DNA of 64,000 nt from a virus, in IMG/VR virus record IMGVR_UViG_3300017759_003727, positions 12,074 through 76,073 of that record; one strand, given 5' to 3'. The first letter of the stretch is position 1; each line of letters opens with the position of its first letter. Shown here one piece after another: positions 14,901-47,571 of the stretch. The notes beneath the pieces were generated by a model. The model had not been told where the DNA came from. It ran no database searches and saw nothing but the letters and a program-made list of their open reading frames with translations. Position numbers and translations under genes: made by a program.

Positions 14901-16397
14901 ATTCTAGACTTTCACTTTGGCACAGGTGCGCTTGCTACCGATAAAGGAGGTCTGAATGTTGTACCGACCTATGGTTATAGTATTTCTGGAGGAATAACAG
15001 GCAACGTGATTAAAACTTTACCCATCAACGATGGAAACACAGTAAATCAAAATATAAACTACACAACAGGCGTTAGGGATTATAATGTATTTATGATCGG
15101 AGGAGTTTCTGGAGATGTCAATTTCTCAACTAATCATAACGGCATAAGTGGAAACAAATATACGGAAGATTTAATTTTAAATATGAGTCCTTTTAGAGAT
15201 GGTATTGGGTTTGATGCTTTTGTATCAGATATTGATAACTTTGCTGATTTTGAAAGTGGAGAACATAGAGAGGAGATAATCATACCAGAAGGAAAAATTA
15301 GTGGTGTTCCTCTTTATAGTGGATTCAATGCGGGACTTGAGTTTGGTGAAGAATTTGAAAACGAATCTGTCGTAACAATAGATTTTCAACATTCTAATCC
15401 TTTAATTTATAGATATCCAACGGGAATAATCTTTACAGGGTTCAGTCATTACACAGGTGTAGATAGTAACGGTAACTTTATTGATGGAGAAACTGGTTGG
15501 TACCTTACTAATTCTGGAGGAAATGTAGATGACCCAACGGATTATGGAAATGTAGCGATTACTACTTTGGGAGAAACCACAGCAACTACTAGCTCTACTA
15601 CAATGGAAGGATTTTTTAGTGGACACCAAAATATAGTCTCAGTAAAATTCTTTACTGGTAGTCAAAGTGGTTTTACTTTTAATCCTTATTCTGATGATTT
15701 CGCATTTGAAAGAGATGTTAATTTAAGAATTGAAACTGGTTTTTCTGGAGGAAATGGCGGGCTTGGAATATATCAAAGAGAATTTATATTTACTAACAAC
15801 GATATTGATTCGAACACTGGAATGATTTTTTATTCAGCTATACCATATTCACAATTAGGGCCGATTCTTAATATGCAAACTGGACAACTAGCTTCTCATA
15901 AAAATTTAAATAATCCATTTGGAAGCTTTAGGTTGGACGAACATGTATTTAGTGGTAGAATGTTTACTGGATTTCCAGATTTTAATGATGACCACCCAAA
16001 TGTAGAACCAACTAATTCAAAAACATCTGCATTAGTTAGTCAAGGTAATTTAAAACTTACTGGAGAATGTCATATTTATATTTCAAGAGAATCTGGATTA
16101 TCTGATTTGCAATTTAATGATGAAACATTTGTTGTCTCACATACTGCTGGTGAAGTAGAATTCAGAATAGATACTGGAATAGCAGATGGAATAGGTATGG
16201 ATGACGAATGGTCAATGACAATTGATCAAAGAACAAGTAGCTCTGTAAGGGTAAGAGACGCTCAAAATAATGCTACAGTAGCTACTGCTGCAACATCAGC
16301 AGGTGCGGTTAGTAAAAGTAATAGCAATGAAGCTATGATAACTGTAACTTACGACAAGACTTCGAACAAAATTTTATTTAGAGAATTTAGTTCTTAA
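8970..16397 (+). CDS. Central tail fibre / tail tip protein J with vWA-like insertion and C-terminal lectin-like (H-type-like, LamG-like) domains
   Basis: VDLVSEGPIGGLV; YSFNYPYSASIVTSLDARAFDDMPNRTFKLKGKKILIP; WDGTFRYDWSDNPAWILFDLL; EPRFSYN; FAAGFEAALLAPGDIIKIDD; QYRVLSVKEN - gpJ hallmarks. Confidence 0.92.
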   Translation: MSNYKKYFSKTNQKLKIAGAGSKAEPSNLIPNKRAFVKESYSLSSTVDLVSEGPIGGLVDVDGRYLAGDENDIIETVPSEDNVLSSKEGFILKGFPDKFLNQTYLPKVSNIPGSYKKLRSKKSYRTIIIVDLSSNSERHLDAIKEKVQTVIESTNLMKAAGYQIDFTLVGLGDQGQVIRQELVGFGHYTSLIPVFGSFQYLDDISRTTNPEKIYNSISNATTLVEGDGKSRTSYTEAIANILDEQGDRGYYPNAFIVIGANPDTTTNKSVALERIEELAQTAAVKNATNRGIVNVSDPTQGNTILTFGFRLHVLTIDIGNGEMERSLRAVKNASLNIETKEFQSDKTVLDVFKYIQPNLLGTSSSKVYRGFEGAKNQLHPKDVPQLAFDGSNWAITNLEGSVIYYTCPEDRFSYNLFYGFDIPWTASEQAAGPAGETYLLNGLTLDKGVYFDELQLKTDRGKQFAKYKIEQKLGSENQTASKIVPKAVRLHTKNFKLLGPYDRDINGARAGTGSADIRKFNSDTAGGSRNFTDWQSFDPAQTDPSIFYHEVTDEDVDSLDLEIQISQLSDTQSFSSKGDNKSGRATMGRNLATTIKYSITLELVFRDGTTENRLLNLKIPLSDKKGFQTVNTESASIISVKGIITAPYSFTIKDIVLPEKTDDIVKRVLKVEKLTYETNSNLINRLTHISSVAERSKYSFNYPYSASIVTSLDARAFDDMPNRTFKLKGKKILIPSNYFPTDEAGLDRRFSEDSSTAGNLIYDGLWDGTFRYDWSDNPAWILFDLLNNFRYGTALYNRDLENIDIWSLYEIGRYCDAVDDYGKFEGLTDGFGGLEPRFSYNHKIDGDNEAFTIIKDIAKFMRCLVYYKDSQVQFKIDKPEQASMLFNNLNVVDGLFNYADVVKNSRTSSVDVSFLDKKNNYRPRTEYAEDRDAIERYGYLKQYIDGFGHTSRASAQRSARNIIFDSTHATETVSFAAGFEAALLAPGDIIKIDDEMKSLEKNYGMFLTQTGANSETHKYPNGAYGPTGLIVDHQIGSQTGLIPTGENNESYIYLYNASNSTSLRELYAKKDNARVTYTDEEISGLKKPKISKLQIDTGAHPFQNLGDDSILIKLNPNQNFPQDAGYFPSMTPYSVDITGRAEKQYRVLSVKENEDSTYAVGAIIYHSGKYDVIEKNVNFDPTQDNFDVSLQSNVSTLPQIPASITARTDLSGVNKFGAIDHFFDIVNSDPVQADQYKIFLTYPSNRSIVLPRLLRTGLGTNEGNTSDNGKTQLAITGELINQFGTYELEIFSEFTKYYTKRSTNSRSVEFTVTADDLGLGNFGKVVTFDGITSKNQDDVFTENFAKQLTGTSLVGESDSQGSRLTRNDNDDSFLDLSLQYVDFVGNNALDQGYNLASEFHFYDSNPGSGMFNAVELAFTGKIGMDKFVVNKSNNHESLQVSVTGLKSGFDFEEANSTCLNNKFGIQTSGFSGARGADRYGTGYHVKFAEQFKGSPVVFIQQVMKSGISFTDYDNLDTYNITPSVVRANTTGFIHNTMSNDVSFFNYFAFETGDFRINNQRFKVRRVEKSDYADLQVDFADSFTGQRNENVVNKKNPIVFVQKQANQNEISFVGGTIAQVLNGTNSGFSLRATNIYGCSDTGDYGYLAIEQTNDNVNEFNFQVIDDDKTQFTGGDIFLTDGLLSPYNSGIENINYTDFGSGTFNYRASHFYQDGSQKISQPGDKFDYYQVDFLAQNDGFVGDTSTHTRFETQAAVVDGGNKTSGNWVRYSDVGAYNNTGIFATGLDAEGDNVKIHFNQNTLHSSGNLNIGKKGFSVLGWFQFKEDSDQWATLIDNWHGTGFVWRQSGGYNQIFAGTGNSQSNVVNVAENLNDGKTHSIFVSVGNNGAVTSWVDGERTTGTSVDPWSETPSGLNNLGVCSFLGSQGNGGNAGCPLTGQSLSSGFAQNFMFIKDGIMDDNSAKLYSVNPYKAYIATDNWAILDFHFGTGALATDKGGLNVVPTYGYSISGGITGNVIKTLPINDGNTVNQNINYTTGVRDYNVFMIGGVSGDVNFSTNHNGISGNKYTEDLILNMSPFRDGIGFDAFVSDIDNFADFESGEHREEIIIPEGKISGVPLYSGFNAGLEFGEEFENESVVTIDFQHSNPLIYRYPTGIIFTGFSHYTGVDSNGNFIDGETGWYLTNSGGNVDDPTDYGNVAITTLGETTATTSSTTMEGFFSGHQNIVSVKFFTGSQSGFTFNPYSDDFAFERDVNLRIETGFSGGNGGLGIYQREFIFTNNDIDSNTGMIFYSAIPYSQLGPILNMQTGQLASHKNLNNPFGSFRLDEHVFSGRMFTGFPDFNDDHPNVEPTNSKTSALVSQGNLKLTGECHIYISRESGLSDLQFNDETFVVSHTAGEVEFRIDTGIADGIGMDDEWSMTIDQRTSSSVRVRDAQNNATVATAATSAGAVSKSNSNEAMITVTYDKTSNKILFREFSS

Positions 16398-16887
16398 GGA
16401 TTTTATATCTATATTCCGTAGCTAAATTAAACCCATTTTTTTTATAAAATTTTTTTAATTTTGGATCGTCGTTAATATTTCCTACATTAATAATATCAAA
16501 ATTATTAGCTTTTGCATATTTAATGCTTTCTTTAAATAATTTTATAGATATTTTTGGATTATTTGAAAACCAAACATACTCCGTAAATGTTCTTTTGTTT
16601 ATTTTTTCATCTAACCCCATAATCCACCAAATAAAACCATCTAAAACATCATCTGTTTTATGTATCAAGGCATAACAAGAGTTCCAATGATATTGATTAG
16701 ACCAAAAAGACTGCAAACAATTCACATCAAAAGGTAGTCCAAATTTAGAAAACTTATTTTCAGAATGAAATTTATCGTTCCATTCTTTTTGATTGATTGC
16801 CCAATTATCAAAGCACTCTTGTACTTCTGAAATATGCTGTACTCTTTTTATCATTTTACCAAAAACCACAGGCTCTACCAAATCCAA
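16387..16887 (-). CDS. GNAT-like acetyltransferase
   Basis: DGFIWW...EYVWFS...KLFKESIKYAKANNFDIINVG...LKKFYKKNGF (C-terminal FYxKxGF GNAT motif). Confidence 0.65.
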   Translation of the reverse strand: MDLVEPVVFGKMIKRVQHISEVQECFDNWAINQKEWNDKFHSENKFSKFGLPFDVNCLQSFWSNQYHWNSCYALIHKTDDVLDGFIWWIMGLDEKINKRTFTEYVWFSNNPKISIKLFKESIKYAKANNFDIINVGNINDDPKLKKFYKKNGFNLATEYRYKILKN

Positions 16888-17140
16888 ACATATTTACAAA
16901 ACAAAAATAAATAGTAAGCAACATTGGGAAAGCTACTTTACGTTCATAATGAGCCAAGGTTGACGCTAGAGCTGCTATAAAAAATATTGGATACACAAGC
17001 TCCATTGTTGGATTGTCCGCAGTTATAGCTAAGTATAAAGAAGCAGAAACAGCAAACACAAAACTAACAACTTCTAGGTAAAAAGCCTTCCGATTTGACA
17101 GAAAGCTTTCTACCCAAAAACCCTTTACTTTAGAAATCAT
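16856..17140 (-). CDS. Small three-TM membrane protein (conserved aquatic-phage family)
   Basis: KAFYLEVVSFVFAVSASLYLA...LVYPIFFIAALA...FPMLLTIYFCFVNMFG. Confidence 0.7.
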   Translation of the reverse strand: MISKVKGFWVESFLSNRKAFYLEVVSFVFAVSASLYLAITADNPTMELVYPIFFIAALASTLAHYERKVAFPMLLTIYFCFVNMFGFGRACGFW

Positions 17141-17859
17141 AATAACTTCAATAGTTTACGACACTCTTTGGCAGGAATATCTTTATATTCTTCCCAAGAT
17201 TTAATAATTTCTGGATCGTTTGTATAATCTTCACTCTTATAAAGCTCTCTAAGTTTGTTTTTGAAGTCTACAAAGGTAAGACCTGCTTTTTCTCTTAAAA
17301 TGCCTTGTGGGCTAATATCTTTAGCTGTAGAAGGCGAATTTGTTTGAATTGGAGCTTTGTCTTTAGAAGAATCTATCTCATCAGCGCCAACAATGTGAAT
17401 ATTTAAAAAATTACGGACACAACGTACAAAAGCACGATTTTCAGCAATACATTCTAAGAATTTTGCAGCGAAACCGTTTGTGTTATTTGTTGTAGCATTT
17501 GCAATAGAAGCAAAAGTTTGTGTGCCATTGCTTTCGTAATTTTCAATCCAACTAATCATACACTGAGTAACAACACGTTCATCTGAGGATTCTGCAATAT
17601 CATATGTAACATTGTGGAAACCACGTAGTCTAGCTAACTCTTTGATACCGCTTAACTTAATAAGTAATTGGCTATCGTCTAAACCATCTACTGATTTGGG
17701 AACAGGCATCTTACGAAATTCGAAATAATCCTTATTAGGATATAAATGATCTGATTTAATCATAGCTCTCCAATTGACAGAGCCGTCTTCATTAAAAACA
17801 TAATCAACTGATTCTAGTAGACCATGTTCGTTTCTTTTGTATTTTTCTGGATTACTCAT
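17137..17859 (-). CDS. Putative Rad52/Sak-like ssDNA-annealing protein
   Basis: LLIKLSGIKELA...VVTQCMISW...CIAENRAFVRCVRNFLNI resembles the AEtRA.gRAlr motif of Rad52-like recombinases. Confidence 0.45.
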   Translation of the reverse strand: MSNPEKYKRNEHGLLESVDYVFNEDGSVNWRAMIKSDHLYPNKDYFEFRKMPVPKSVDGLDDSQLLIKLSGIKELARLRGFHNVTYDIAESSDERVVTQCMISWIENYESNGTQTFASIANATTNNTNGFAAKFLECIAENRAFVRCVRNFLNIHIVGADEIDSSKDKAPIQTNSPSTAKDISPQGILREKAGLTFVDFKNKLRELYKSEDYTNDPEIIKSWEEYKDIPAKECRKLLKLL

Positions 17860-18988
17860 ATAAATATAAACTTTCTAATTCTTGTTTTGAAGTATCATTT
17901 AATACAAACTTTTCACTATTGTCAAGCGAATTCGCAGATAAACGAGAATTAAACACCTTTCCTTGAGAAATAAAACGTTTTTTGCAGAAAAATTTTGTTT
18001 TATCAGATATTTCTGACACTTCTTGACCTTGAATTTCTAAATCAACAAGATAATCAAAGTATTTTAGTCTTAAATCTTTGAGGTCTTCTTCTTTTTTAGC
18101 TAAAACTACAAGTTCTATTTTGTTTTTTTTAATTTTTTTAAAAAAATCAGAGTAATCTTTATTCAAATCTTTTATTTTAAAAGTTATTCTTTTTGTGGTT
18201 TGTTTGATAGCATTTAAATGTTCATCCATTAGTTCTTCGTCAATAACTAAATGAGATAAACACATTCTGCACCAGTTAATAATATTGTTTAAATCAAAAT
18301 GTAGGTCACCTCTAATATTTACTGGACGATTATGCAGTTCTTTTGAATAAGCAAAAAAGTTTGGGACAATCTCTACAAGAGGAGCGTTATATAAAGCACC
18401 CGCTCTTACTGTTTTGAATGGAATTTTAAAATCAATATTTAGTTTATCTAAAACCGCTTGGGCTAAAGATTCTGGTTTCACCTCATTAATTCTTTTTACT
18501 GGCTCTTGGTCAGCAAAAGATGGTTTAATTTCTTCAAAATTTGGAGATAGTAATGAAACCTTTTCTGGATCACTCCAATATGGATAACAGGTTTCTTTGT
18601 ATGTGTGAGAATAAAGAGAAACGATAGGTATACCAAAAGCACTTGCAATATGAACTGGTAAACTATCTATGCCTAAATGTAATTTTGATTTACTAATAAT
18701 ATAATTTGTTTGTCTGTAGGTGCATCGATTAAATAACTCGTCAACACCTTGAATAGGTTCAGCCTTGGGGCCTCCTACTTGAATTATCTTATAACCTAAC
18801 TCTTTTAATTTAGGGCCTAATAGACCAAGACAAACATCCCAATAATCATATTGTTTGGGTTGAACATCTGTATCCATGTGGAAAGTAATATATTTTTCAT
18901 GTATTACTGGATAATAATGTTTTTGAATTTTTGGTTTGCCAACCTTAACTCCTAAATCTTTTGCGTAAACTTCTACTAAGTGACTCAT
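17852..18988 (-). CDS. GT9 (heptosyltransferase-like) C-terminal domain protein plus unknown C-terminal domain
   Basis: KIIQVGG...IISKSKLHLGIDSLPVHIASAFGIPIVSLYS is the GT9 signature; GT9 N-terminal Rossmann domain absent. Confidence 0.8.
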   Translation of the reverse strand: MSHLVEVYAKDLGVKVGKPKIQKHYYPVIHEKYITFHMDTDVQPKQYDYWDVCLGLLGPKLKELGYKIIQVGGPKAEPIQGVDELFNRCTYRQTNYIISKSKLHLGIDSLPVHIASAFGIPIVSLYSHTYKETCYPYWSDPEKVSLLSPNFEEIKPSFADQEPVKRINEVKPESLAQAVLDKLNIDFKIPFKTVRAGALYNAPLVEIVPNFFAYSKELHNRPVNIRGDLHFDLNNIINWCRMCLSHLVIDEELMDEHLNAIKQTTKRITFKIKDLNKDYSDFFKKIKKNKIELVVLAKKEEDLKDLRLKYFDYLVDLEIQGQEVSEISDKTKFFCKKRFISQGKVFNSRLSANSLDNSEKFVLNDTSKQELESLYLYE

Positions 18989-20667
18989 AATTTAAATTGT
19001 AATCTATCTTTCCCGTTGTGGTGATAATTGTGTTCTTTTTGTGTCCCAATATGGGGCAAAAAAGCTATATCAAAAAAACCTTTGTGACTACCTCTGCCTT
19101 CCAAAAAATGCAAGTTATCTATTTCTGAGGAAAAGGGTAAAACTTTATGCACTGCTGGATGATCCTCTAAATAAGAAAAATACTGAGGCATTGTAAATGT
19201 ATAAATATCATATTCTGGATATAATTCTTTCAAGTTGTCTAAAAGGCTATTTAAGAGTAGCACATCTCCAGCAGACTGTGGCAGTACGATAGCTATCCTT
19301 TTACCCTCATCTAACAAGTCTTCAAATTTAATTTTACCTTTATTAGATTCTTCTTCCCAATTAAAATCATAGTCTATATCTGGCATATTATCTATAATTG
19401 ATTCTAGCTTTTTGCCCACAGCTTCTATGGAATAATTTTTAATTGTAAAATCTCTGCCCTTACGACCAATTTCTAATCTTTTGCTAGGTTTCATTTGCCA
19501 AACTTTTTTCAATTGTTTTGCAATACTAGAAGCGTATGTAGAAGCTTTAATAAACTGAGTTCCTGGTTCTCTATACTCAGCCCAATCAAGAGGCATGCCA
19601 CCGCTTTCTGACGTACAAGAATCCTCGCCACAAGAATAACTAGTAACCAATGTTATTAATTCTGTTAGTTTAGCTTCAAAAATTGGAATTTCCATACCGC
19701 CACTTGTAAAAGGATGGCAGTACACATCTAGTAAATTATATATTTCGTTTAATTGTTCTTCATCAACCCCTGCACCTACATTAGTTGTATTTACTGATTT
19801 CTCAGAGCCACAGTATTTGCAATTTTGCTCTTGACCACAAAAAGGTTTTATCTCATACTCTCCGCAAGATTTACAAAAGTAAGTTGTAAGAATATCTTGT
19901 GGATCAATATTTTTTTCTTTTAAAAGCCTAGGAATATCCCAACCTTCAGACCAATGAGTATGTAAAAGAAGTTTTGCTTTAGCACAATCTTTTTTAAATA
20001 TCTTAAATCCATCCAACATATTTGGCACACTTTTTCTTAGTTGATTTCTGAAAACAAATCCAATAATGAATTCATCAGTGAGGCCAAACTTTTGTCTTAA
20101 ATTTTTTCTTTCTGTATTTGAAAGTCTATGAAAATCATCCGTGTTTACAGTTCCATGCAATGTACCAACATGTTCTTCACCCATGTTTTTTAAATCTCTT
20201 TCAGCAAAGGAAGACCATACATAAAAGTTTTTTGTTTTAGGTGCGGCCTCTAATGCTTGAGGTAAAATTGGTTGGCTGTCTAAAGTAGTCCAAATCATAT
20301 GATTTATTTTATTCCACCAAGGCTTGTCCCAAAATTTATCGAAAGCCCAAATATCTTCTACTCCAATATAAACATCTGGTTTGTATTCTTTGATTGCTGA
20401 GTCAATCATCATGCCTCCGTATCCAGCAACTCTTCCTTTATGTGGGTCAGAATTAGCTTGTTGAATTAAAGCTGGGTTATTTGGTAAAGAACCTTGGCAA
20501 ATCCAAGGTTTTGTTTTAACTGATGGGTGACCCCATTGAGAGCCATTACAAAACTCAACAATTTTATACTTGCCAGTTTTTTGCAAGTATTTTAAAATGT
20601 TTTTACAATTTTTACCAAAACCAGTAAAAGCTTTGGAGTTATTAGAGTGGAATAAAACTGTTTTCAT
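18985..20667 (-). CDS. GT4 (GT-B) glycosyltransferase with Cys4 insertion, fused to a C-terminal GT9 N-domain
   Basis: GFVFRNQLRKSVP...YNLLDVYCHPFTSGGMEIPIFEAK; CKSC...CKYC; C-terminal RIAIVLPQSAGDVLLLNSLLDNLKELYPEYDI...HPAVHKV. Confidence 0.8.
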   Translation of the reverse strand: MKTVLFHSNNSKAFTGFGKNCKNILKYLQKTGKYKIVEFCNGSQWGHPSVKTKPWICQGSLPNNPALIQQANSDPHKGRVAGYGGMMIDSAIKEYKPDVYIGVEDIWAFDKFWDKPWWNKINHMIWTTLDSQPILPQALEAAPKTKNFYVWSSFAERDLKNMGEEHVGTLHGTVNTDDFHRLSNTERKNLRQKFGLTDEFIIGFVFRNQLRKSVPNMLDGFKIFKKDCAKAKLLLHTHWSEGWDIPRLLKEKNIDPQDILTTYFCKSCGEYEIKPFCGQEQNCKYCGSEKSVNTTNVGAGVDEEQLNEIYNLLDVYCHPFTSGGMEIPIFEAKLTELITLVTSYSCGEDSCTSESGGMPLDWAEYREPGTQFIKASTYASSIAKQLKKVWQMKPSKRLEIGRKGRDFTIKNYSIEAVGKKLESIIDNMPDIDYDFNWEEESNKGKIKFEDLLDEGKRIAIVLPQSAGDVLLLNSLLDNLKELYPEYDIYTFTMPQYFSYLEDHPAVHKVLPFSSEIDNLHFLEGRGSHKGFFDIAFLPHIGTQKEHNYHHNGKDRLQFKL

Positions 20668-21125: not shown

Positions 21126-21162
21126 ATTGGATGATTATAAGATAAAAAGTGTAAAATTCTAT

Positions 21163-21798
21163 ATGCCAAGGAATATTAATTTACCCAAAACTAGGGTTTT
21201 TATAAGGAAAGATATGTGGGGTGGTTCTGAGAAAGAATTTGAACCAGCATGGTTAGTTTCAGTTAGGGCATTAAGAGGTAGACCTTTTTGTTTTCAAGTA
21301 TGGGTTGATGGCTTTTGCGCTTGTTACGATAAGGTTAGATTAGACTGCTTATACTGGAAAACACCAGAAAAAGATCACGAAAAACTAGATTTAGTTGACG
21401 TGCAAATGTGGGAATGTTTATCAAATGATATAGAATTATTTCACAAAGCACAATTAGCAGACGTTCCTATGTTGGTCAACATGGGAGATGGTGATTTTCA
21501 AGAAGGGAATTACTGGTTTACTATAGACTGCATACCAGAAAAACAATCTTTGGGGTACTTAGATGTTGGCGATTCTGATTTGCTTGATGAACACAAAGAA
21601 ATGAATGTAATTAAGTTGAAGAATGGTCAAGTAGCTATTTATCCAAATAATAGATTAAAATGGATTCCAGAATCATTGAGTAGTATTGAAGCTATCAAAA
21701 ATATCCCGAAATGGGAAGTTGCAGAAAACGCAATATGGGATAAAGAATGGTTGGAGCAACCTTATGAATTATTTGGAGATTCAGATTGGAGCTATTAA
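21163..21798 (+). CDS. Conserved phage hypothetical protein
   Basis: NINLPKTRVFIRKD...AWLVSVRALRGRPFCFQV...QVAIYPNNRLKW resembles a family of T4-like aquatic phages; start reassigned to 21163 (GTGTAA 8 nt upstream). Confidence 0.7.
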   Translation: MPRNINLPKTRVFIRKDMWGGSEKEFEPAWLVSVRALRGRPFCFQVWVDGFCACYDKVRLDCLYWKTPEKDHEKLDLVDVQMWECLSNDIELFHKAQLADVPMLVNMGDGDFQEGNYWFTIDCIPEKQSLGYLDVGDSDLLDEHKEMNVIKLKNGQVAIYPNNRLKWIPESLSSIEAIKNIPKWEVAENAIWDKEWLEQPYELFGDSDWSY

Positions 21799-37396: not shown

Positions 37397-38247
37397 TTTT
37401 TTATAAATTTTTTAATATAATTATCTAAATTTTCTTTAGGAGACCAATCTAAAATTTCTTTTGCTTTAGGGTCAGAACATAAAGTTGAATCATATTCACC
37501 GTCTCTCTGTGGTATATTAATCTTTGGGTAACTTTTTCCAAATAAATTTGCAATTTCATTAATAGAAAAATTATTGCCCCTACCCAATTCAAATATCTCT
37601 GCTTTAAAATTGTGCCCAATACATCTAACTAAACCATCTACTATATCGTTTATGTGAGTAAAGTCTCTTTTCTGTTCTCCTGTGCCTACAATAGTCAAAG
37701 GTTTATTATTCGTGAACTGGTCTTCAAAAATCCCTATTACTGTTGCATATTCTCCAGTTTTCAAGTGATGTGGCCCGTACACATTATAAAATCTACAAAT
37801 AGTGGTATTTAAATTATATACAGAACTATAAAGTTTGCACAACTCTTCTCCTCCATATTTAGACCAAGCATAAGGACTTCCGTATAACCCGTGATGTTTT
37901 GAACTAGAACCAGAGTAAATTACTTGAATATTGTGTTTTCTAGCGTATTCTAAAACGCTCAAAGTACCCATAAAATTATTTTTAATAAAAAGTTCTGGTT
38001 GGGTTAATGATGGTTGTATTCTTGCTAAAGCGGCCAAATGATATATCAAATCTACCTTACCGAAAGTTTTATCAAAATCTATTTGATTTATTTCTCCTTC
38101 GATATATTCGCATCCAGGTTGATGATTTGCTTTGTAACCAGTTGAATAATTATCTAAAGATATAACTTCGTGGTTTTCTTTTAATAGTCGTTTTATTAAA
38201 TTTGTGCCCACAAAACCTGCACCACCTGTAACTAAAATTCTTTTCAT
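37393..38247 (-). CDS. NAD-dependent nucleotide-sugar epimerase/dehydratase
   Basis: TGGAGFVG; YHLAA; SPYAWSK; RFYNVYGP; RDFTHIND. Confidence 0.92.
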   Translation of the reverse strand: MKRILVTGGAGFVGTNLIKRLLKENHEVISLDNYSTGYKANHQPGCEYIEGEINQIDFDKTFGKVDLIYHLAALARIQPSLTQPELFIKNNFMGTLSVLEYARKHNIQVIYSGSSSKHHGLYGSPYAWSKYGGEELCKLYSSVYNLNTTICRFYNVYGPHHLKTGEYATVIGIFEDQFTNNKPLTIVGTGEQKRDFTHINDIVDGLVRCIGHNFKAEIFELGRGNNFSINEIANLFGKSYPKINIPQRDGEYDSTLCSDPKAKEILDWSPKENLDNYIKKFIKK

Positions 38248-38897
38248 GAATTATTATATAAGAATTCAGCAAATTTAAACTCTAAAGGTGTATCTATATC
38301 TACAGACTCTTTTTCATCCAGTTTAACAAAATATGGATTCTTTCCAATGGCGTTTTTGTTTTCAATCATTAATTTTTTACTAATGATAGACACTCCATAG
38401 TGTACGCCTAGTATATCTGGTAAATCTTGGCTATTAGGAGCGTTTTGTGGATCATAATTAATTGGTTGCCCGTCTAACCACATGTGATGTTTCACATCAA
38501 ACGCTGTCATTACGCTATCTTTTTCTTCTAAATTTTGATATATTTTAATACATTTTTCAAAAGTCTCTTTACTTACGAAAGGACAAGTAACAGGTGCATA
38601 CATAATATGCTCTGACGGTGTGATTTCAGCTATATGTTTAAAGTATTCACTGTTGTTAATTATGGAGCTGGCGAAATACTCATCTCTTTTATATGTTTCT
38701 ACTCCACGCTGAGAAGCTATATAAAGCATTGTATCGCAATCGCTATTCACAATTATTTTATCAATACCTTTTGCTTGTTTTAAGGTATCTATTTTTAATT
38801 GTAATAGATTTGTATTTCCAAAAGGTTTTATGTTTTTGTTTTTAACCCTTTCCGAACCTTTTCTTACAGGAATTACTGCTGTAATTTTTTTATCCAT
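38244..38897 (-). CDS. neuA: CMP-nonulosonate (acylneuraminate) cytidylyltransferase
   Basis: VIPVRKGSERVKNKNI; VNSDCD; VDIDTPLEFKFAE. Confidence 0.88.
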   Translation of the reverse strand: MDKKITAVIPVRKGSERVKNKNIKPFGNTNLLQLKIDTLKQAKGIDKIIVNSDCDTMLYIASQRGVETYKRDEYFASSIINNSEYFKHIAEITPSEHIMYAPVTCPFVSKETFEKCIKIYQNLEEKDSVMTAFDVKHHMWLDGQPINYDPQNAPNSQDLPDILGVHYGVSIISKKLMIENKNAIGKNPYFVKLDEKESVDIDTPLEFKFAEFLYNNS

Positions 38898-39279
38898 TTA
38901 TTTTTTCTAGAGTTTTGTCCCAAGATTTAAATTCTATAGCCTTATCATCTATATAGTAACAAGCTCTAGGTTTTTCACAAGTAATTTCTGATATAAATTT
39001 TTTCAAATCATGCTTTTTTAACCAATCTTCCACTAACTCAAGACCAGTTTTGCCATTTACCAAAGGTCTATCTTTTTTAATCTTTGCAGTGAAAATAATC
39101 AAATTATAACTTTTAGACAAAGACTCTAGTGCTGAATAAACACCTTTGATTGGCTCTCCATAACAAGTGCCGTCATGAAAGCCTTTATCAAAAGTATGTA
39201 TAACGCCATCAAAATCTATAGCCAAGTTATTATCTTGGCTTTCTAGACCTGGTGGCACATGTTTTATTTCACCTTGCAT
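38890..39279 (-). CDS. Small HAD-family phosphatase
   Basis: AIDFDGVIH; IIFTAK; KPRACYYIDDKA. Confidence 0.8.
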   Translation of the reverse strand: MQGEIKHVPPGLESQDNNLAIDFDGVIHTFDKGFHDGTCYGEPIKGVYSALESLSKSYNLIIFTAKIKKDRPLVNGKTGLELVEDWLKKHDLKKFISEITCEKPRACYYIDDKAIEFKSWDKTLEKING

Positions 39280-39836
39280 TTTTTTAGGATAGATGGGCAG
39301 TCAAACCCAGCACCATGTACAAGTTGATAAGTGAGCATTAGTGACAAAATTTCAGACGTATGATAAAACTCAACATCTTGAACAACTTTAATAATATTTG
39401 GATTGCCACATGGATTGTATTGGGCTGAAATCATTGCTGTGTCAATATTATTTTCGTCAGCCCAATTTAAAGCATTTACAATACAATTTGCTGATGCATT
39501 ATTAAGAGAGCAAGAAAAGCCGACGGCTAAACATTTTGACGGATCTAAGCCAATGCTTCTTGTTTCCATCCAATTTGTCATCCAGCTATCGAAATCCGTA
39601 TCTGCTATGAGAGAAGTAGCTGTAATGGCACTACCTGGAGCTATAATATTTTTATTTGTTAATCTTGAAGAATCTATAGCCCCGTGATCTGCGACAGCCA
39701 TATTTCCTCCGTGACCAAAAAAGAAAATGTTTGTTGCATTATTGTATGCAGTTTGTAGTTTGTCCCACTCTTTGCTTTTAATAATTTTATTAAACTTTTC
39801 TTCGATATTTTCTAATTGTATTTTATTTTCCTTCAT
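39264..39836 (-). CDS. SIS-domain sugar-phosphate isomerase (GmhA-like)
   Basis: IFFFGHGGNMAVADH parallels GmhA GNGGSAADAQH; TSLIADTDFDSW; AVGFSCS; EILSLMLTYQL. Confidence 0.65.
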   Translation of the reverse strand: MKENKIQLENIEEKFNKIIKSKEWDKLQTAYNNATNIFFFGHGGNMAVADHGAIDSSRLTNKNIIAPGSAITATSLIADTDFDSWMTNWMETRSIGLDPSKCLAVGFSCSLNNASANCIVNALNWADENNIDTAMISAQYNPCGNPNIIKVVQDVEFYHTSEILSLMLTYQLVHGAGFDCPSILKKCKVK

Positions 39837-40620
39837 GAATTGTAATTTTAAATAGTAAAAAGATTCCACATTGATTATCAAATATTTCAACTGGATTCCA
39901 CGCTGAATCAGTTTTCTGAGTTACTGCGGTTTGTTGTGTTATTGGGAATTGAATTGGTTTATGATCTTCGTCTTCGTCGTATTTTTTTTGATAGTTAAAA
40001 CTTTCATCCCACAAAATTGGAACATAATCTATTTTAGAATCAGTGTCATCTGCAAATATTTTTAAATTATTTAAAAAATGAGATAGCTTATCTGCTTGCT
40101 GAGGAACTCCTAAATATATATTAGTTTCCTTATTGATGTTTTCATACAAATGTTTAAGTATAAAAATATCTTCGTCGTAAAAAGTCCAAGAATGAATTAA
40201 ATCTATATTTGAAAAATCTGTTATCTCCTTAACATCGCCATAAACAGAATTTCTTTTGCATTTAAAGTCTCTTTTTAATTCAGATGTATATGTTGGTTCA
40301 TGGCGCTCTACAGATGTTAATTCTTTAGCGTAGTAAGAAATACCTTGGCAAATTTCTCCAAATCTTGAACCTACATGCATTACATGTTTATCCTTTAAGT
40401 CTTCTTTTATATAGTATGGAGTCATGATAGGATAACGAAAATTAACATGCTCTTCTGAATCTATTTCTTTCTGGAGAATAAATTTATCGCTTTCGTCATA
40501 AATCTCTTTTAACTTAGAATGAGTTTGTTTTCTAAATTCATCAAAAGAAATATCTTGACTTTCCAAAAGAGGAAAAAATTGAAATAACAAATGTGAGTTT
40601 GGTAATTTTATTTTTTTCAT
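39823..40620 (-). CDS. Hypothetical protein, degenerate SAM-methyltransferase-like
   Basis: VMHVGSRFGEI...LTSVE...GDV...DLIHSW. Confidence 0.5.
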   Translation of the reverse strand: MKKIKLPNSHLLFQFFPLLESQDISFDEFRKQTHSKLKEIYDESDKFILQKEIDSEEHVNFRYPIMTPYYIKEDLKDKHVMHVGSRFGEICQGISYYAKELTSVERHEPTYTSELKRDFKCKRNSVYGDVKEITDFSNIDLIHSWTFYDEDIFILKHLYENINKETNIYLGVPQQADKLSHFLNNLKIFADDTDSKIDYVPILWDESFNYQKKYDEDEDHKPIQFPITQQTAVTQKTDSAWNPVEIFDNQCGIFLLFKITIHEGK

Positions 40621-46145: not shown

Positions 46146-46504
46146 TAATCTCCTTTCGTTACTCTATAACTATCTTCATCAAAATGTTGCGTAGAAAACT
46201 CGAACATTTCTGTGTCCTCTAAGGCTTGCATTTGATGTACTAAGCCAGTGTGTACCCAAAAATTATCTCCAGGTTCTAGTATAACTTCTTTTGCTTTTTC
46301 GATTTCGTGATGGTATCCATATCTAACTAAAAGTTTACCTGTTCTAATATAGAACACTTCATCTTTTAATTCGTGATAATGCCAAGAGCATTTTTTGCCT
46401 TTAGCAAACCATAAAATTTTTCCACAGTATTCGTGTTTGTTTACGATCCATTTTTCGTAACCCCAACCTTTGGGAACAAACTTAATCTCTGAAAAATTCT
46501 TCAT
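46145..46504 (-). CDS. Cupin (sugar isomerase/epimerase-like)
   Basis: VPKGWGYEKWI; CSWHYHELKDEVFY; VHQM; EFSTQHFDEDSYR. Confidence 0.85.
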   Translation of the reverse strand: MKNFSEIKFVPKGWGYEKWIVNKHEYCGKILWFAKGKKCSWHYHELKDEVFYIRTGKLLVRYGYHHEIEKAKEVILEPGDNFWVHTGLVHQMQALEDTEMFEFSTQHFDEDSYRVTKGD

Positions 46505-46796
46505 CTTTTATTGCTTTATCGTCTATATAAAAATCACCAGCTGGCTTACCCATGAATAACTTATGATACTTTGCTCCCCAATTTTTCAACTGTTTTTCTG
46601 TTAATTTTTTGAAAAGGTTTGGATTGTTATTATTTGAACGACCCATACCTCTGGCTGTTAGAAAATGGATTGTATGTCCTTCGTCGTATAGTTTGTTTAT
46701 TTTTTTTATTCTATCTTTTTTGGGTATTGAGTTTTTGTAATCACCACCCTGTATTTGATAACAAATAGTTCCGTCTATATCAATTACGTACGTCAT
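46482..46796 (-). CDS. Small HAD-like phosphatase (capsule-biosynthesis type)
   Basis: VIDIDGTIC; FLTARGM; LFMGKPAGDFYIDDKA. Confidence 0.82.
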   Translation of the reverse strand: MTYVIDIDGTICYQIQGGDYKNSIPKKDRIKKINKLYDEGHTIHFLTARGMGRSNNNNPNLFKKLTEKQLKNWGAKYHKLFMGKPAGDFYIDDKAIKDEEFFRD

Positions 46797-47571
46797 CTAA
46801 ATATTTTTTATATTCTACTAACCCTTTATCTATGGTATACTTAGGTTTCCAATTTGGCATCCATTTTTCAGAATTAGACCTTGTATAAAATTGATACCAT
46901 TTTGGTATCTCCCTAAGGTGATGATATTTACGGCGAACACCCATTATGCTTAAAACATCTTCAAATGTTCTGGCTTCTCCGCTTCCAACTTCATAAACTC
47001 CTTTTGGGGCTTCTATAGCATGGATATTTGCGTCAACAACATCTTGTATATAAACAAAATCTCTTTTGGGTTCTTTTTGAAAAATTCTAAATTGACCTTT
47101 TTTATGAGCTTGGTTAGCAACTGATGCCATTTTACCTTTGTGGCATTCCCCAGGACCGTAAACATTAAAATATCTTAAAGCTACAAAATTATCGCATTTT
47201 GCCATACCGTAATCTTCTGCAACAAGTTTAGACCAGCCATAAATATTTAAAGGAGTTTGATCATCGACTCCATCTCCATAGCAAGCAGCAGAAGACGAGT
47301 ATACGACTTTCTTATTCATGGATTGACATAGATTAAATAAAGTTTTACTAAATGTATAATTAAAAGTCATCATCTCCGCTTCGTCTTGAAGGGATGTATC
47401 TGATATAGCTCCAACATGAAACACTATGTCTGACTCTGTCAAAGCAGCTACAAGTTCTGGAGACCAACAGTCTTCGATATCAAAACAATATACCACATCG
47501 TATATTTCTTGAAGTTTTTTTTCTAAGGCTTTTCCTATAAATCCTTTATATCCTGTCAATAATGCTTTCAT
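46780..47571 (-). CDS. hldD: ADP-L-glycero-D-manno-heptose 6-epimerase-like
   Basis: FHVGAISDT; YSSSAACYG; PLNIYGWSK; LRYFNVYGPGECHKGKMASV; RDFVYIQDV. Confidence 0.8.
   Translation of the reverse strand: MKALLTGYKGFIGKALEKKLQEIYDVVYCFDIEDCWSPELVAALTESDIVFHVGAISDTSLQDEAEMMTFNYTFSKTLFNLCQSMNKKVVYSSSAACYGDGVDDQTPLNIYGWSKLVAEDYGMAKCDNFVALRYFNVYGPGECHKGKMASVANQAHKKGQFRIFQKEPKRDFVYIQDVVDANIHAIEAPKGVYEVGSGEARTFEDVLSIMGVRRKYHHLREIPKWYQFYTRSNSEKWMPNWKPKYTIDKGLVEYKKYLDDVRN

What the first reader, a model, noticed from the sequence alone, without database searches (positions are those of the whole stretch)
17852..20667. GT9 heptosyltransferase split over two coupled genes, its N-half fused to a Cys4-containing GT4
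Seen: the last ~110 aa of 18985-20667 (RIAIVLPQSAGDVLLLNSLLDNLKELYPEYDI...HPAVHKV) look like the GT9 N-terminal domain. The next gene (ATGA overlap) starts with the GT9 interdomain linker (HLVEVYAKDLG...PKI) and C-terminal domain (LHLGIDSLPVHIASAFG) but has no N-domain. The GT4 half carries CKSC-X15-CKYC. Known: GT-B enzymes need both domains, and TibC-type heptosyltransferases bind iron with four Cys. Inference: a heteromeric two-activity transferase complex that could build a disaccharide on a protein or lipid acceptor.
Basis: partly seen in the sequence, partly recalled or inferred. Interest (0 to 1): 0.78.

Follow-up and report, generated by a model that had tools for sequence, protein, structure and literature searches.

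The report
Phage glycosyltransferase split across two genes
An uncultured marine phage encodes a family-9 (heptosyltransferase-type) sugar-adding enzyme in two pieces, with its front lobe attached to the end of a second, different glycosyltransferase; the break is kept in every close relative examined, so it is probably a working two-chain, two-enzyme complex, though what it glycosylates is unknown.

Summary
Gene 18985-20667(-) encodes a GT4-type GT-B enzyme (aa 1-430) with an invariant Cys4 ribbon (CKSC-X14-CKYC, not X15), a flexible linker, and a ~100-aa tail. Gene 17852-18988(-) starts in an ATGA overlap.

- **Tail is a GT9 N-lobe.** Profile comparison maps it to GT9 positions 2-59, including the catalytic-type G-D (hhalign 94%, E 1.3e-7; GT4 control 0.2%).
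- **Second protein is the rest of GT9.** Residues 1-186 match WaaC from residue 138 onward (Z 16-17 for four GT9 structures; next fold 11.4).
- **The two are predicted to bind.** Score 0.87 against a best control of 0.11.
- **Unsplit relatives exist.** One is a single 836-aa GT4+GT9 protein. Another places the gene boundary between GT4 and an intact GT9.
- **The split is conserved.** All 78 related viral loci with enough flank are split, whatever the junction.

Best reading: a natural two-chain bifunctional glycosyltransferase, analogous but not homologous to Alg14/Alg13. Donor (ADP-heptose?) and acceptor (virion protein or host envelope) are not settled. The TibC iron-finger parallel is positional only.

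This scan noted the same architecture before on other DNA (e1-833550). I rate it a new variant of a known kind, of moderate interest.

The parts
19378..20667 (-). P0001 aa 1-430: GT4-type (retaining-family) GT-B glycosyltransferase module
   Evidence: PHROG 2170 glycosyltransferase, aa 4-428, E 1.5e-20. Weak Pfam Glycos_transf_1. AlphaFold model has pLDDT 84.8. Foldseek top hits are all GT4-type GT-B: 3oy2 chlorovirus GT E 1e-16, then MshA, PimB', BshA. The FRNQLRKS and E326/E331 motifs are invariant.
19810..19875 (-). Cys4 ribbon CKSC-X14-CKYC (aa 265-286) inserted in the C-lobe of the GT4 module; probable structural metal site
   Evidence: C265, C268, C283 and C286 are invariant in 30 homologues. 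They are also present in the distant relatives P0345 and P0392. The model shows beta-hairpins at 259-265, 271-275 and 292-294. Metal binding is inferred, not shown.
19300..19377 (-). Flexible linker, aa 431-456, between the GT4 module and the GT9 N-lobe; ~637-aa relatives carry a ~75-aa insert here that is DUF4214-like in distant relatives
   Evidence: Lowest pLDDT of the model (blocks 71 and 57). Least conserved region, 47% mean identity. The insert in ~637-aa homologues is seen. PF13946 DUF4214 was hit on P0117 (precomputed) and on distant relatives, not on the aligned 637-aa variants themselves.
18988..19299 (-). P0001 aa 457-560: GT9 N-lobe (acceptor-side half), four beta-strands
   Evidence: hhalign A2 vs E. 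coli WaaC/F/Q/U: tail columns 16-73 map to GT9 positions 2-59, probability 94%, E 1.3e-7. GT4 control gives 0.2%. 19 of 30 tails hit heptosyltransferase II positions 1-~60. Strands lie at 457-461, 487-492, 506-511 and 534-536. In P0345 and P0279 the same domain is followed in one chain by the GT9 C-lobe.
19264..19275 (-). S465-A-G-D468 loop: equivalent of the GT9 'G-D' catalytic-base loop (WaaC Asp13, TibC Asp110)
   Evidence: It aligns with SMGD of WaaC. D468 is at least 90% conserved. Residues 466-468 lie in the predicted inter-chain interface. The catalytic role is inferred from WaaC and TibC (PMC4358343).
18985..18988 (-). ATGA stop/start overlap between the two genes
   Evidence: The P0002 frame has a TAA two codons upstream of its ATG, so there is no room for a frameshift fusion. 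11 of 78 related loci share the -4 overlap.
18923..18988 (-). P0002 aa 1-22: the last N-lobe helix plus interdomain linker of GT9 (H-x-V-E motif), supplied in trans; probable docking element
   Evidence: It aligns with WaaC 139 onward (HAVERTRELFAKSLG). It is the most conserved part of the family, 74% identity against 49% and 41% for the other two regions. pLDDT is low when folded alone (57, 71). Residues 4-22 form most of the predicted interface.
18431..18922 (-). P0002 aa 23-186: GT9 C-lobe (nucleotide-sugar side)
   Evidence: Pfam PF01075, 26.3 bits against a cut-off of 22. RfaQ model E 1.6e-8. VIA-align: 3tov Z 17.1, WaaC Z 16.1 (chain 138-320), WaaF Z 16.0, TibC Z 15.3, next fold Z 11.4. 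hhalign 95.8%, E 7.7e-9.
18650..18667 (-). D108-S-L-P-V-H113: GT9 donor-binding motif D-[ST]-x-x-x-H
   Evidence: It aligns with WaaC D261-T-G-L-S-H266, which is invariant in the E. coli GT9 alignment. Residues 109-110 and 113-114 lie in the predicted interface.
17852..18430 (-). P0002 aa 187-378 (plus stop): extra alpha/beta domain of unknown function ('X')
   Evidence: Confidently modelled (pLDDT above 90). There is no Pfam or PHROG family. The only structural row covering aa 200-365 is PqqE at Z 8.7, at background level. Atlas look-alikes are phage-only clusters. The domain is shared with the unsplit relative P0279. Other relatives carry GT2 or radical-SAM domains at this position instead.

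Best explanation
The two genes encode a natural two-chain, two-activity glycosyltransferase.

- Chain A (560 aa) is a complete GT4-type GT-B enzyme stiffened by a Cys4 ribbon. A flexible linker follows, then the N-lobe of a GT9 enzyme carrying the catalytic-type Asp468.
- Chain B (378 aa) begins with the last helix and interdomain linker of that same GT9 enzyme. It continues with the GT9 C-lobe, which carries the nucleotide-sugar motif D108-S-x-x-x-H113, and ends in an extra alpha/beta domain of unknown role.

The GT9 active site can form only when the two chains meet. The N-terminal helix of chain B packs onto helix 1 of the N-lobe in chain A, and the two lobes face each other across the usual GT-B cleft. 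The split therefore ties GT9 activity physically and stoichiometrically to the GT4 enzyme, so two sugar-transfer steps would be done by one particle.

What is shown by computation: the domain identities, the complementary coverage of the GT9 fold, a predicted interface, the existence of unsplit homologues, and conservation of the split.

What is inferred:
- That both sites are active.
- That the GT9 donor is ADP-heptose, made by the phage's own HldE/HldD-like genes or by the host.
- That the acceptor is either a phage structural protein (my slight preference, about 45%) or a host envelope glycoconjugate (about 35%).
For: - **Complementary homology.** The tail maps to GT9 positions 2-59 and P0002 residues 3-171 map to WaaC 139-309. 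In structure, P0002 residues 1-186 match WaaC 138-320, WaaF 128-345, TibC 184-391 and 3tov 133-345 at Z 15.3-17.1, well above the next fold at 11.4.
- **Specificity control.** The tail against GT4 WaaG/WaaB scores 0.2%.
- **Consistent weak hits.** 19 of 30 tails hit the N-terminus of the heptosyltransferase II model.
- **Predicted complex.** ipSAE is 0.87 in the median of three runs, against a best control of 0.11. That mark was reached by 58 of 80 solved complexes and 2 of 110 mismatched pairs. The counts are rough here because my own alignments were used. The interface holds the SAGD loop and helix 1 of chain A, and residues 4-22 plus the DSLPVH region of chain B.
- **Rosetta stones.**
  - P0345 (836 aa) is GT4 + N-lobe + C-lobe in one chain, with only three residues between '...HNG' and 'HILKQYA'.
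  - P0279 (553 aa) is N-lobe + C-lobe + X, 31% identical to P0002 over its full length. It sits next to a separate 522-aa GT4 gene.
  - Further fusions carry GT2, radical-SAM or intein modules.
- **Conservation.** 78 of 78 related IMG/VR loci with enough flank are split, with seven or more different junction geometries. Thousands of metagenome homologues keep the 560-aa and ~375-aa forms.
- **Docking element.** The N-terminal 22 residues of chain B are the best-conserved part of its family.
- **Catalytic-type residues.** D468, D108 and H113 are kept.
- **Donor.** HldD-like (2.6e-55), heptose-7-P kinase-like (4.6e-34) and heptose-1-P adenylyltransferase-like (1e-34) genes lie in the same window.
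- **Cellular location.** Neither chain has a transmembrane segment.
Against: - Nothing here is biochemical. Binding rests on a structure predictor, which may partly remember single-chain GT-B folds.
- I could not fold the tail alone and search it, so its GT9 assignment rests on sequence profiles, the fused homologues and the complex model.
- hmmsearch of either family profile against PDB sequences found no GT9, so the family is very divergent.
- Only 3 of 13 related virus records, all incomplete, carry the heptose adenylyltransferase. The ADP-heptose link is therefore weak.
- A subgroup of chain-B homologues has lost the D-S-x-x-x-H motif and part of the C-lobe. In some lineages the GT9 half may therefore be non-catalytic.
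- The GT4 module lacks the first Glu of the classical EX7E motif (by inspection).
- There is no evidence about the acceptor beyond gene neighbourhood.
Confidence: 0.75

Rival explanations
1. Scaffold reading. The two GT9 halves still bind each other, but the reconstituted GT9 is catalytically dead. It serves only as a heterodimerisation module that recruits the unknown C-terminal domain of chain B to the active GT4 enzyme.
For: A subgroup of chain-B homologues (P0175, P0192, P0202, P0230, P0227) has replaced GIDSLPxH by G(V/L)(S/A)NH.. and deleted about 14 residues of the C-lobe. Their chain-A partner still keeps an intact tail. The N-terminal docking helix is more conserved than the C-lobe. 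Most related records lack heptose-activation genes. Relatives put unrelated enzymes (GT2, radical SAM) after the GT9, as if the GT9 were a connector.
Against: In the window's own lineage D468, D108, S109, H113 and the surrounding motifs are kept. The SAGD loop is at least 90% conserved, although it would not be needed for binding alone. Fused relatives pass the Pfam GT9 threshold with 30-46 bits.
Confidence: 0.13
2. Decay reading. The split is a broken gene or an assembly or sequencing error, so one or both pieces are relics without function.
For: Stop/start overlaps at domain boundaries can arise from single-base errors. The window record is a metagenome-derived virus contig.
Against: 78 of 78 related loci from independent samples are split, with junctions ranging from a -13 nt overlap to a +400 nt gap. 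Both families are conserved over their full length down to 35-40% identity. Chain B always starts at M-S-H-x-x-E-x-Y-A-K.
Confidence: 0.03
3. Recoding reading. A programmed -1 frameshift at the ATGA overlap produces a single GT4-GT9 polypeptide like the 836-aa relative.
For: The downstream frame is -1 relative to the upstream one, and an unsplit homologue exists.
Against: In the downstream frame a TAA lies two codons before the ATG. That leaves six bases and no slippery heptamer. In relatives the junction is +1 to +9 nt, or 350-400 nt with another gene in between, which no frameshift could bridge.
Confidence: 0.02

Closest known systems
Alg14/Alg13 (eukaryotes) and EpsE/EpsF (bacteria, archaea): GT-B UDP-sugar transferases of the GT1/GT28 kind split into an N-lobe protein and a C-lobe protein (PMC8993221)
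   Same: [quoted passage not shown] Split and re-fused forms coexist among relatives. The same pattern appears here.
   Different: The CAZy family differs: GT9, with no Pfam hit to Alg14 or Glyco_tran_28_C. The N-lobe is not membrane-anchored but is covalently fused to a second complete glycosyltransferase (GT4). The cut lies before the last N-lobe helix, which travels with the C-lobe chain. The C-lobe chain carries an extra domain. The system is phage-encoded.
LPS core heptosyltransferases WaaC, WaaF and WaaQ (GT9; PDB 2h1f, 1psw)
   Same: They are the best sequence-profile and structural matches for both halves. The G-D loop and the D-[ST]-x-x-x-H motif are conserved.
   Different: They are single polypeptides of about 320-350 aa with a larger N-lobe (about 135 aa before the HxVER helix, against about 100 aa here). 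They are not fused to GT4 and have no extra C-terminal domain. The acceptor here is unknown.
TibC/AAH bacterial autotransporter heptosyltransferases (BAHT; PDB 4rap/4rb4; PMC4358343)
   Same: TibC is a GT9-like fold with Z 15.3 to chain B. Its N-lobe is small (98 aa) and four-stranded, with the catalytic Asp 12 residues after its start. A Cys4 knuckle caps a GT-B C-lobe somewhere in the assembly.
   Different: [quoted passage not shown] Here there is no beta-barrel, the GT9 C-lobe has no Cys4, and the Cys4 ribbon sits in the GT4 module. The oligomeric state is unknown.
Unsplit phage GT4-GT9 fusion proteins and GT9-X proteins from metagenomes (P0345, P0329, P0327, P0362, P0374, P0279; unnamed)
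   Same: They are true homologues of the same modules in the same order: GT4 with Cys4, an optional DUF4214-like linker, GT9 N-lobe, GT9 C-lobe, then a variable last domain.
   Different: The gene boundaries fall elsewhere or are absent. The identities are low: 26% for the GT4 module, 41% for the N-lobe, and 28-31% for chain B.

Membership tests
GT9 (Pfam PF01075, heptosyltransferase-type GT-B) | Match to the family profile above the curated threshold | tested here: met
   P0002 scores 26.3 bits against a cut-off of 22, profile positions 92-227 of 247. The six-frame search of the genome gives 27.8 bits. Only the second half of the profile is covered by this gene.
GT9 (Pfam PF01075, heptosyltransferase-type GT-B) | N-lobe with the N-terminal beta1-G-D-helix1 signature (catalytic Asp) | tested here: met
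   It is present, but on the other polypeptide (P0001 aa 457-514). hhalign gives 94%, E 1.3e-7 to GT9 positions 2-59. 19 of 30 tails hit TIGR02195. D468 is at least 90% conserved.
GT9 (Pfam PF01075, heptosyltransferase-type GT-B) | C-lobe with the D-[ST]-x-x-x-H-[IL]-A donor-binding motif and GT9-like structure | tested here: met
   D108-S-L-P-V-H113-I-A aligns with WaaC D261...H266. The four best structural matches are all GT9, Z 15.3-17.1.
GT9 (Pfam PF01075, heptosyltransferase-type GT-B) | Both lobes on one polypeptide | tested here: not met
   A stop codon lies between the lobes. All 78 related loci with enough flank are split.
GT9 (Pfam PF01075, heptosyltransferase-type GT-B) | Uses ADP-heptose as donor | not testable with these tools
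   HldD-like and HldE-like genes are in the same window. Only 3 of 13 related records carry the adenylyltransferase.
BAHT (TibC/AAH protein O-heptosyltransferases) | N-terminal flattened beta-barrel domain before the catalytic domain | tested here: not met
   The N-lobe is preceded by a GT4 enzyme and a flexible linker, not by a beta-barrel. The feature is defined in PMC4358343.
BAHT (TibC/AAH protein O-heptosyltransferases) | Cys4 iron finger inserted in the GT9 C-lobe | tested here: not met
   The P0002 family has no conserved Cys. The Cys4 ribbon lies in the GT4 module of P0001. TibC uses Cys339, 342, 358 and 370 in its own C-lobe.
BAHT (TibC/AAH protein O-heptosyltransferases) | Reduced, four-stranded N-lobe | tested here: met
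   The model shows four strands within aa 457-536. The TibC N-lobe is four-stranded and 98 aa long. This is a resemblance only.
BAHT (TibC/AAH protein O-heptosyltransferases) | Serine residues of a protein substrate as acceptor; dodecameric ring | not testable with these tools
Alg14/Alg13-EpsE/EpsF type split GT-B | N-lobe and C-lobe on separate chains that must associate to form the active site | tested here: met
   This was tested in silico only: ipSAE 0.87 against a best control of 0.11, with catalytic-type residues divided between the chains.
Alg14/Alg13-EpsE/EpsF type split GT-B | Sequence homology to the Alg14 (PF08660) and Alg13/Glyco_tran_28_C (PF04101) families | tested here: not met
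   Neither family appears in the Pfam scans at E up to 1. The homology found is to GT9.
Alg14/Alg13-EpsE/EpsF type split GT-B | Membrane anchor on the N-lobe subunit | tested here: not met
   The maximum 19-residue Kyte-Doolittle hydropathy is 1.56 for P0001 and 1.48 for P0002, both peaks lying in Rossmann strands.
GT4 (retaining GT-B, Pfam Glycos_transf_1) | GT-B fold closest to GT4 structures; family profile match | tested here: inconclusive
   The fold criterion is met: the top 50 Foldseek hits are GT4-type, led by 3oy2 at E 1e-16. PF00534 scores only 17.3 bits against a cut-off of 26.4 in this protein, although most homologues carry a precomputed PF00534 hit. PHROG 2170 scores E 1.5e-20.

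The most novel reading that the evidence does not exclude
The split is functional design and not an accident. Hanging the GT9 acceptor lobe on the GT4 enzyme, and supplying the donor lobe in trans, would give these marine phages an obligate two-site assembly line. It would lay a heptose-containing disaccharide on their own tail or capsid proteins. That would be a phage-specific protein O-heptosylation system, mechanistically parallel to TibC/AAH but evolved independently. The movable gene boundary (three different partitions of the same modules) would be a way to tune stoichiometry or timing.
Probability: 0.2. Interest if true: 0.72.

Novelty: new variant of a known kind. Interest (0 to 1): 0.55.

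Why it matters
Split GT-B glycosyltransferases are textbook only for Alg13/Alg14 and the EpsE/EpsF group. A second, independent case in family GT9 would show that division of the GT-B fold is a recurrent evolutionary solution. This case is abundant in ocean phages, and its N-lobe is welded to another glycosyltransferase. It also offers natural split, fused and re-partitioned versions of the same modules, which are ready-made material for studying how the two lobes recognise each other and for engineering split or bifunctional glycosyltransferases. For phage biology it flags a conserved, tail-gene-adjacent glycosylation machine in a large uncultured marine phage group. Its target, whether virion proteins or the host envelope, would bear on host recognition and on phage stability in the sea. 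For annotation, chain B alone would be called a truncated heptosyltransferase and the tail of chain A would be missed.

Tried and rejected
- **hmmsearch of the family profiles against PDB sequences.** Neither the tail profile nor the chain-B profile found a GT9 entry; only chance-level hits appeared. HMM-versus-sequence search is too insensitive for this family. Profile-profile and structural comparison were needed.
- **BLAST and tblastn against 50,697 cultured or deposited phage records.** No match for either gene, so there is no cultured relative. DnaE gave only distant hits.
- **Identity of the C-terminal domain of chain B.**
  - No Pfam or PHROG family.
  - No Atlas feature hit.
  - Not similar to the radical-SAM domain that follows GT9 in P0327.
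  - PqqE at Z 8.7 is background.
  - The domain is left unassigned.
- **Structural search of the tail alone.** Not possible for the same reason. The whole-protein search is dominated by the GT4 body.
- **Atlas feature search of the tail.** It gave GT9 and TibC_1st clusters at 0.81. That is below the tool's reliability mark, so I used it as a lead only.
- **Link to the heptose pathway.** I expected the adenylyltransferase in most related records and found it in 3 of 13 incomplete ones. I downgraded the donor inference.
- **Frameshift fusion.** Rejected from the sequence and from junction diversity.
- **Literature.** I found no paper describing a split GT9 or a phage GT4-GT9 complex. The library is incomplete, so this is not proof of absence.
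- **Neighbouring genes.** Only a GNAT-like acetyltransferase and a ferredoxin-PHROG protein could be named. Neither gives a clue to the acceptor.

Full report
**1. What is in the sequence**

The window belongs to an 82.9-kb IMG/VR virus record rated 61% complete. Its GC content is about 32%. P0001 is 18985-20667 (560 aa) and P0002 is 17852-18988 (378 aa).

They overlap in ATGA...AAA TTA TGA read as K L stop, and ATG AGT CAC read as M S H. In the downstream frame a TAA lies two codons before the ATG. The genes belong to a tightly packed minus-strand run, bordered on one side by a 2475-aa J-like central tail fibre gene on the plus strand (PHROG 31, E 1.3e-97). Clp-like and DnaE genes lie on the other side.

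**2. Chain A**

Residues 4-428 match the phage glycosyltransferase PHROG 2170 (E 1.5e-20). The AlphaFold model has a mean pLDDT of 84.8. Its best Foldseek matches are all GT4-type GT-B enzymes: the chlorovirus NY2A glycosyltransferase 3oy2 (E 1e-16, TM 0.75 by target), then MshA, PimB' and BshA.

In an alignment of 30 homologues at 61-78% identity, the FRNQLRKS motif, E326 and E331 are invariant. So are four cysteines, C265, C268, C283 and C286. The motif is CKSC-X14-CKYC, not X15. The model places it on beta-hairpins inserted in the C-lobe of the GT4 module. A fifth Cys (C277) is not conserved.

After a poorly conserved, low-confidence linker (aa 431-456) comes a compact tail. Its elements run strand 457-461, helix 466-482, strand 487-492, helix 494-499, strand 506-511, helix 519-523, strand 534-536.

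**3. Is the tail a GT9 N-lobe?**

As a single sequence it is only suggestive: TIGR02195 positions 1-58, E 0.16. As a family it is clear.
- Scanned one by one, 19 of 30 tails hit LPS heptosyltransferase II, 19 hit heptosyltransferase III and 18 hit heptosyltransferase I. The hits are always at the N-terminus of the model, with a best E of 3.8e-6. No other kind of family recurs.
- hhalign of the tail alignment against E. coli WaaC/WaaF/WaaQ/WaaU aligns tail columns 16-73 with GT9 positions 2-59. Probability is 94% and E is 1.3e-7. SAGD468 aligns with the SMGD13 loop that holds the catalytic Asp of WaaC.
- The same tail profile against the GT4 enzymes WaaG/WaaB scores 0.2%. The signal is therefore GT9-specific and not generic Rossmann similarity.

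An HMM-versus-sequence search of PDB found nothing, which shows how divergent the family is.

**4. Chain B**

P0002 passes the Pfam GT9 gathering score, but only over profile positions 92-227 of 247. It is the only PF01075 match in the whole record.
- hhalign aligns residues 3-171 with WaaC 139-309, beginning at the H-A-V-E-R helix (95.8%, E 7.7e-9).
- The AlphaFold model (pLDDT 90.7) was aligned exhaustively to 48,161 PDB representatives. Four GT9 structures come out on top, all over model residues 1-186: 3tov Z 17.1 (chain 133-345), WaaC Z 16.1 (138-320), WaaF Z 16.0 (128-345) and TibC Z 15.3 (184-391). The next fold scores 11.4.
- D108-S-L-P-V-H113-I-A corresponds to the invariant D261...H266 of E. 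coli GT9.

Residues 187-378 form a confident extra alpha/beta domain. I could not assign it.

**5. The two pieces are complementary and predicted to bind**

The tail covers the start of the GT9 fold. Chain B covers the fold from the last N-lobe helix to the end. Neither overlaps the other.

A complex prediction of the tail (aa 442-560) with chain B (aa 1-200) scored ipSAE 0.87, 0.87 and 0.84 in three runs, against 0.11, 0.00 and 0.00 for three controls. That mark was reached by 58 of 80 solved complexes and 2 of 110 mismatched pairs in the tool's calibration. The counts hold only roughly because my own alignments were used.

The confident interface is what a GT-B cleft would predict.
- On chain A: P0001 residues 460, 462, 466-468 (AGD), 470-479 (helix 1), 482, 498-499, 502-505, 536 and 538.
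- On chain B: residues 4-22 (N-terminal helix and linker), 90-92, 109-110, 113-114, 117 and 137-138.

Two independent observations fit this. The first 22 residues of chain B have low confidence when folded alone (pLDDT 57 and 71). They are also the best-conserved segment of the family, at 74% mean identity against 49% for the C-lobe and 41% for the last domain. A structure predictor can score high from memory of single-chain GT-B folds, so this supports binding but does not show it.

**6. Natural unsplit relatives**

A full HMMER search with the tail profile over 1.84 billion representatives gave 419 hits at E <= 1e-3. Most carry the tail at the C-terminus of proteins of about 560-660 aa, or are fragments ending in it. 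Several continue in the same chain into a GT9 C-lobe that passes the Pfam threshold.

| Protein | Length | Architecture |
|---|---|---|
| P0345 | 836 aa | GT4, N-lobe, C-lobe |
| P0329 | 855 aa | GT4, DUF4214, N-lobe, C-lobe |
| P0327 | 1106 aa | GT4, DUF4214, N-lobe, C-lobe, then radical SAM |
| P0362 | 1171 aa | GT4, N-lobe, C-lobe, then GT2 |
| P0374 | 1564 aa | Intein/Hint region, GT4, DUF4214, N-lobe, C-lobe, then GT2 |
| P0388 | 699 aa | DUF4214, N-lobe, C-lobe, then GT2 |
| P0279 | 553 aa | N-lobe, C-lobe, then the same last domain as P0002 |

- In P0345 the part homologous to chain A ends at ...HNG640. The part homologous to chain B starts at H644-I-L-K-Q-Y-A, only three residues later.
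- In P0279 the junction reads ...HNGLGKSEYQL-TEDPDNENNFNS-SHLLSTYA. That is the C-terminus of a chain-A-like protein, a 12-residue low-complexity linker, and the N-terminus of a chain-B-like protein. Identity to P0002 is 31% over the full length.
- On its contigs, P0279 is preceded by a separate 522-aa GT4 gene that has the same Cys4 ribbon. That gene ends inside the DUF4214-like linker.

The same ordered modules (GT4, optional DUF4214-like linker, GT9 N-lobe, GT9 C-lobe, variable last domain) are thus cut into genes in at least three ways: [GT4-N][C-X] as in the window, [GT4][N-C-X], and [GT4-N-C]. This is classic Rosetta-stone evidence that the parts work together.

**7. Conservation of the split**

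Both proteins have thousands of metagenome homologues with the same lengths and 100% coverage. Every chain-B homologue starts M-S/G/A-H/S-x-x-E-x-Y-A-K.

I fetched 80 related IMG/VR loci (34-66% identity) and located both profiles in stop-to-stop frames. Two loci lacked enough upstream flank. The other 78 were all split, and none was fused.

| Junction | Loci |
|---|---|
| -4 nt overlap (ATGA, as here) | 11 |
| -8 nt overlap | 5 |
| -13 nt overlap | 9 |
| +1 to +9 nt gap | 16 |
| +32 or +73 nt gap | 2 |
| 350-400 nt gap | 35 |

In the locus I inspected (L002), the large gap holds a 136-aa DUF6165-like gene. A protein-level break that survives such variation at the DNA level is a selected state. 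It is not an error, a relic or a frameshift site. The position next to the J-like tail fibre gene is also kept in distant relatives.

**8. How it most likely works**

*Shown by computation:* chain A is a full GT4 plus the acceptor-side lobe of a GT9, carrying the catalytic-type Asp. Chain B is the donor-side lobe, carrying the nucleotide-sugar motif. The N-terminal helix of chain B is predicted to complete and clamp the N-lobe in trans.

*Inferred:*
- The complex has two active sites and carries out two consecutive transfers on one acceptor.
- GT9 enzymes are inverting and typically use ADP-heptose (established knowledge of WaaC, WaaF and TibC; PMC4358343).
- The window encodes HldD-like (E 2.6e-55), heptose-7-phosphate kinase-like (4.6e-34) and heptose-1-phosphate adenylyltransferase-like (1e-34) proteins, plus a small HAD phosphatase. 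All score below the curated equivalog cut-offs.
- Only 3 of 13 related, incomplete records carry the adenylyltransferase. The donor could equally be host-made ADP-heptose or another sugar.

The acceptor is open. For a virion protein:
- The pair keeps its position next to the tail-fibre gene.
- Both chains are soluble, with no transmembrane segment.
- The N-lobe is small and four-stranded, like that of the protein-glycosylating TibC.

For a host envelope glycolipid:
- The best profile hits are LPS heptosyltransferases.
- A small hydrophobic ORF and a GNAT-like gene follow in the operon.

I put these at roughly 45% and 35%.

**9. Comparison with what is known**

*Alg14/Alg13 and EpsE/EpsF.* Functionally, the closest precedent is this pair of split GT-B systems. 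There, N-lobe and C-lobe proteins form the active site between them, and split and re-fused forms coexist (PMC8993221). This case works like that but is not a member. The homology is to GT9, there is no membrane anchor, the N-lobe is fused to another enzyme, and the cut lies one helix earlier.

*GT9.* By homology it is a GT9 enzyme that fails only the single-polypeptide criterion.

*BAHT/TibC.* It is not a BAHT. It has no N-terminal beta-barrel and no iron finger in the GT9 C-lobe. However, the motif sits in the GT4 module, so it is at most an analogous structural metal knuckle.

*Literature and earlier notes.* I found no paper on a split GT9 or a phage GT4-GT9 complex in the held library. Earlier notes of this scan describe the same architecture in another genome (e1-833550) and other split GT9-like modules next to serine-rich fibres. 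Those are unchecked AI notes, and I treat them as leads. My tests here agree with the first independently.

**10. Verdict**

It remains unproven for the chemistry. This is a new variant of a known kind: a naturally split GT-B enzyme. It is robustly conserved and abundant in uncultured marine phages, with an instructive set of alternative gene partitions. Interest is moderate, and it would rise if the complex proves to be a phage protein O-heptosylation machine.

Noticed in passing
L002:5607-6017 (related contig); gap of 350-400 nt in 35 of 78 related loci (L011-L035 etc.): In almost half of the related phage loci a gap of 350-400 nt lies between the two halves of the split enzyme. In L002 that gap holds a small gene (136 aa; Pfam DUF6165 E 1.7e-9, DUF4254 E 4.7e-7). 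The window lacks it. It could be a third subunit, a regulator or a selfish insert.
   Followed up: partly
P0175, P0192, P0202, P0230, P0227 (chain-B homologues; alignment A3 columns 70-125): A subgroup of chain-B proteins has lost the GIDSLPxH donor motif (now G-V/L-S/A-N-H..) and about 14 residues of the C-lobe. Their chain-A partner (for example P0393) keeps an intact SAGD tail. The GT9 may be a pseudo-enzyme in these lineages.
   Followed up: partly
P0374 (1564 aa), P0327 (1106 aa), P0362 (1171 aa), P0388 (699 aa): distant metagenome relatives: These are giant single-chain versions. P0374 has an intein/Hint region (aa 76-450), GT4, DUF4214, GT9 and GT2. P0327 has a radical-SAM-like domain after GT9 (28.2 bits, just under the cut-off of 29.5). 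The position after the GT9 C-lobe looks like a swap site for different enzymes.
   Followed up: partly
window 46482-48773 (-): A run of genes has best NCBIfam matches to ADP-heptose 6-epimerase (46780-47571, E 2.6e-55), heptose-7-P kinase (47546-48319, 4.6e-34), heptose-1-P adenylyltransferase (48273-48773, 1e-34) and a capsule-type small phosphatase (46482-46796, 1.6e-11). All are below the equivalog cut-offs. The proposed GmhA-like ORF 39264-39890 gave no NCBIfam or Pfam hit.
   Followed up: partly
window 38244-38897 (-): A PseF-like CMP-nonulosonate cytidylyltransferase (TIGR03584, E 3.4e-19).
   Followed up: no
L009:1-3585 (contig with the unsplit 836-aa GT4-GT9): In that phage DnaE is itself divided. 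A PHP/DNA_pol3_alpha ORF and a finger/HHH_6 ORF (518 aa) are separated by three small genes, one of them zinc-ribbon-like. Two further full-length GT9 genes (326 and 312 aa) lie downstream of the fused GT4-GT9.
   Followed up: no
window 16856-17140 (-) and 16387-16887 (-): The operon continues after chain B with an unassigned 240-aa protein. A 94-aa very hydrophobic ORF follows, with probably three membrane helices by eye. Then comes a GNAT-like acetyltransferase (PHROG 1249, E 3.6e-6). These are possible accessory functions for glycan modification or membrane targeting.
   Followed up: partly
window 21127-21798 (+): A 223-aa protein matches PHROG 3704, which is annotated 'ferredoxin' (E 4.7e-35), but has no Pfam family. 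It lies divergently upstream of the operon.
   Followed up: no
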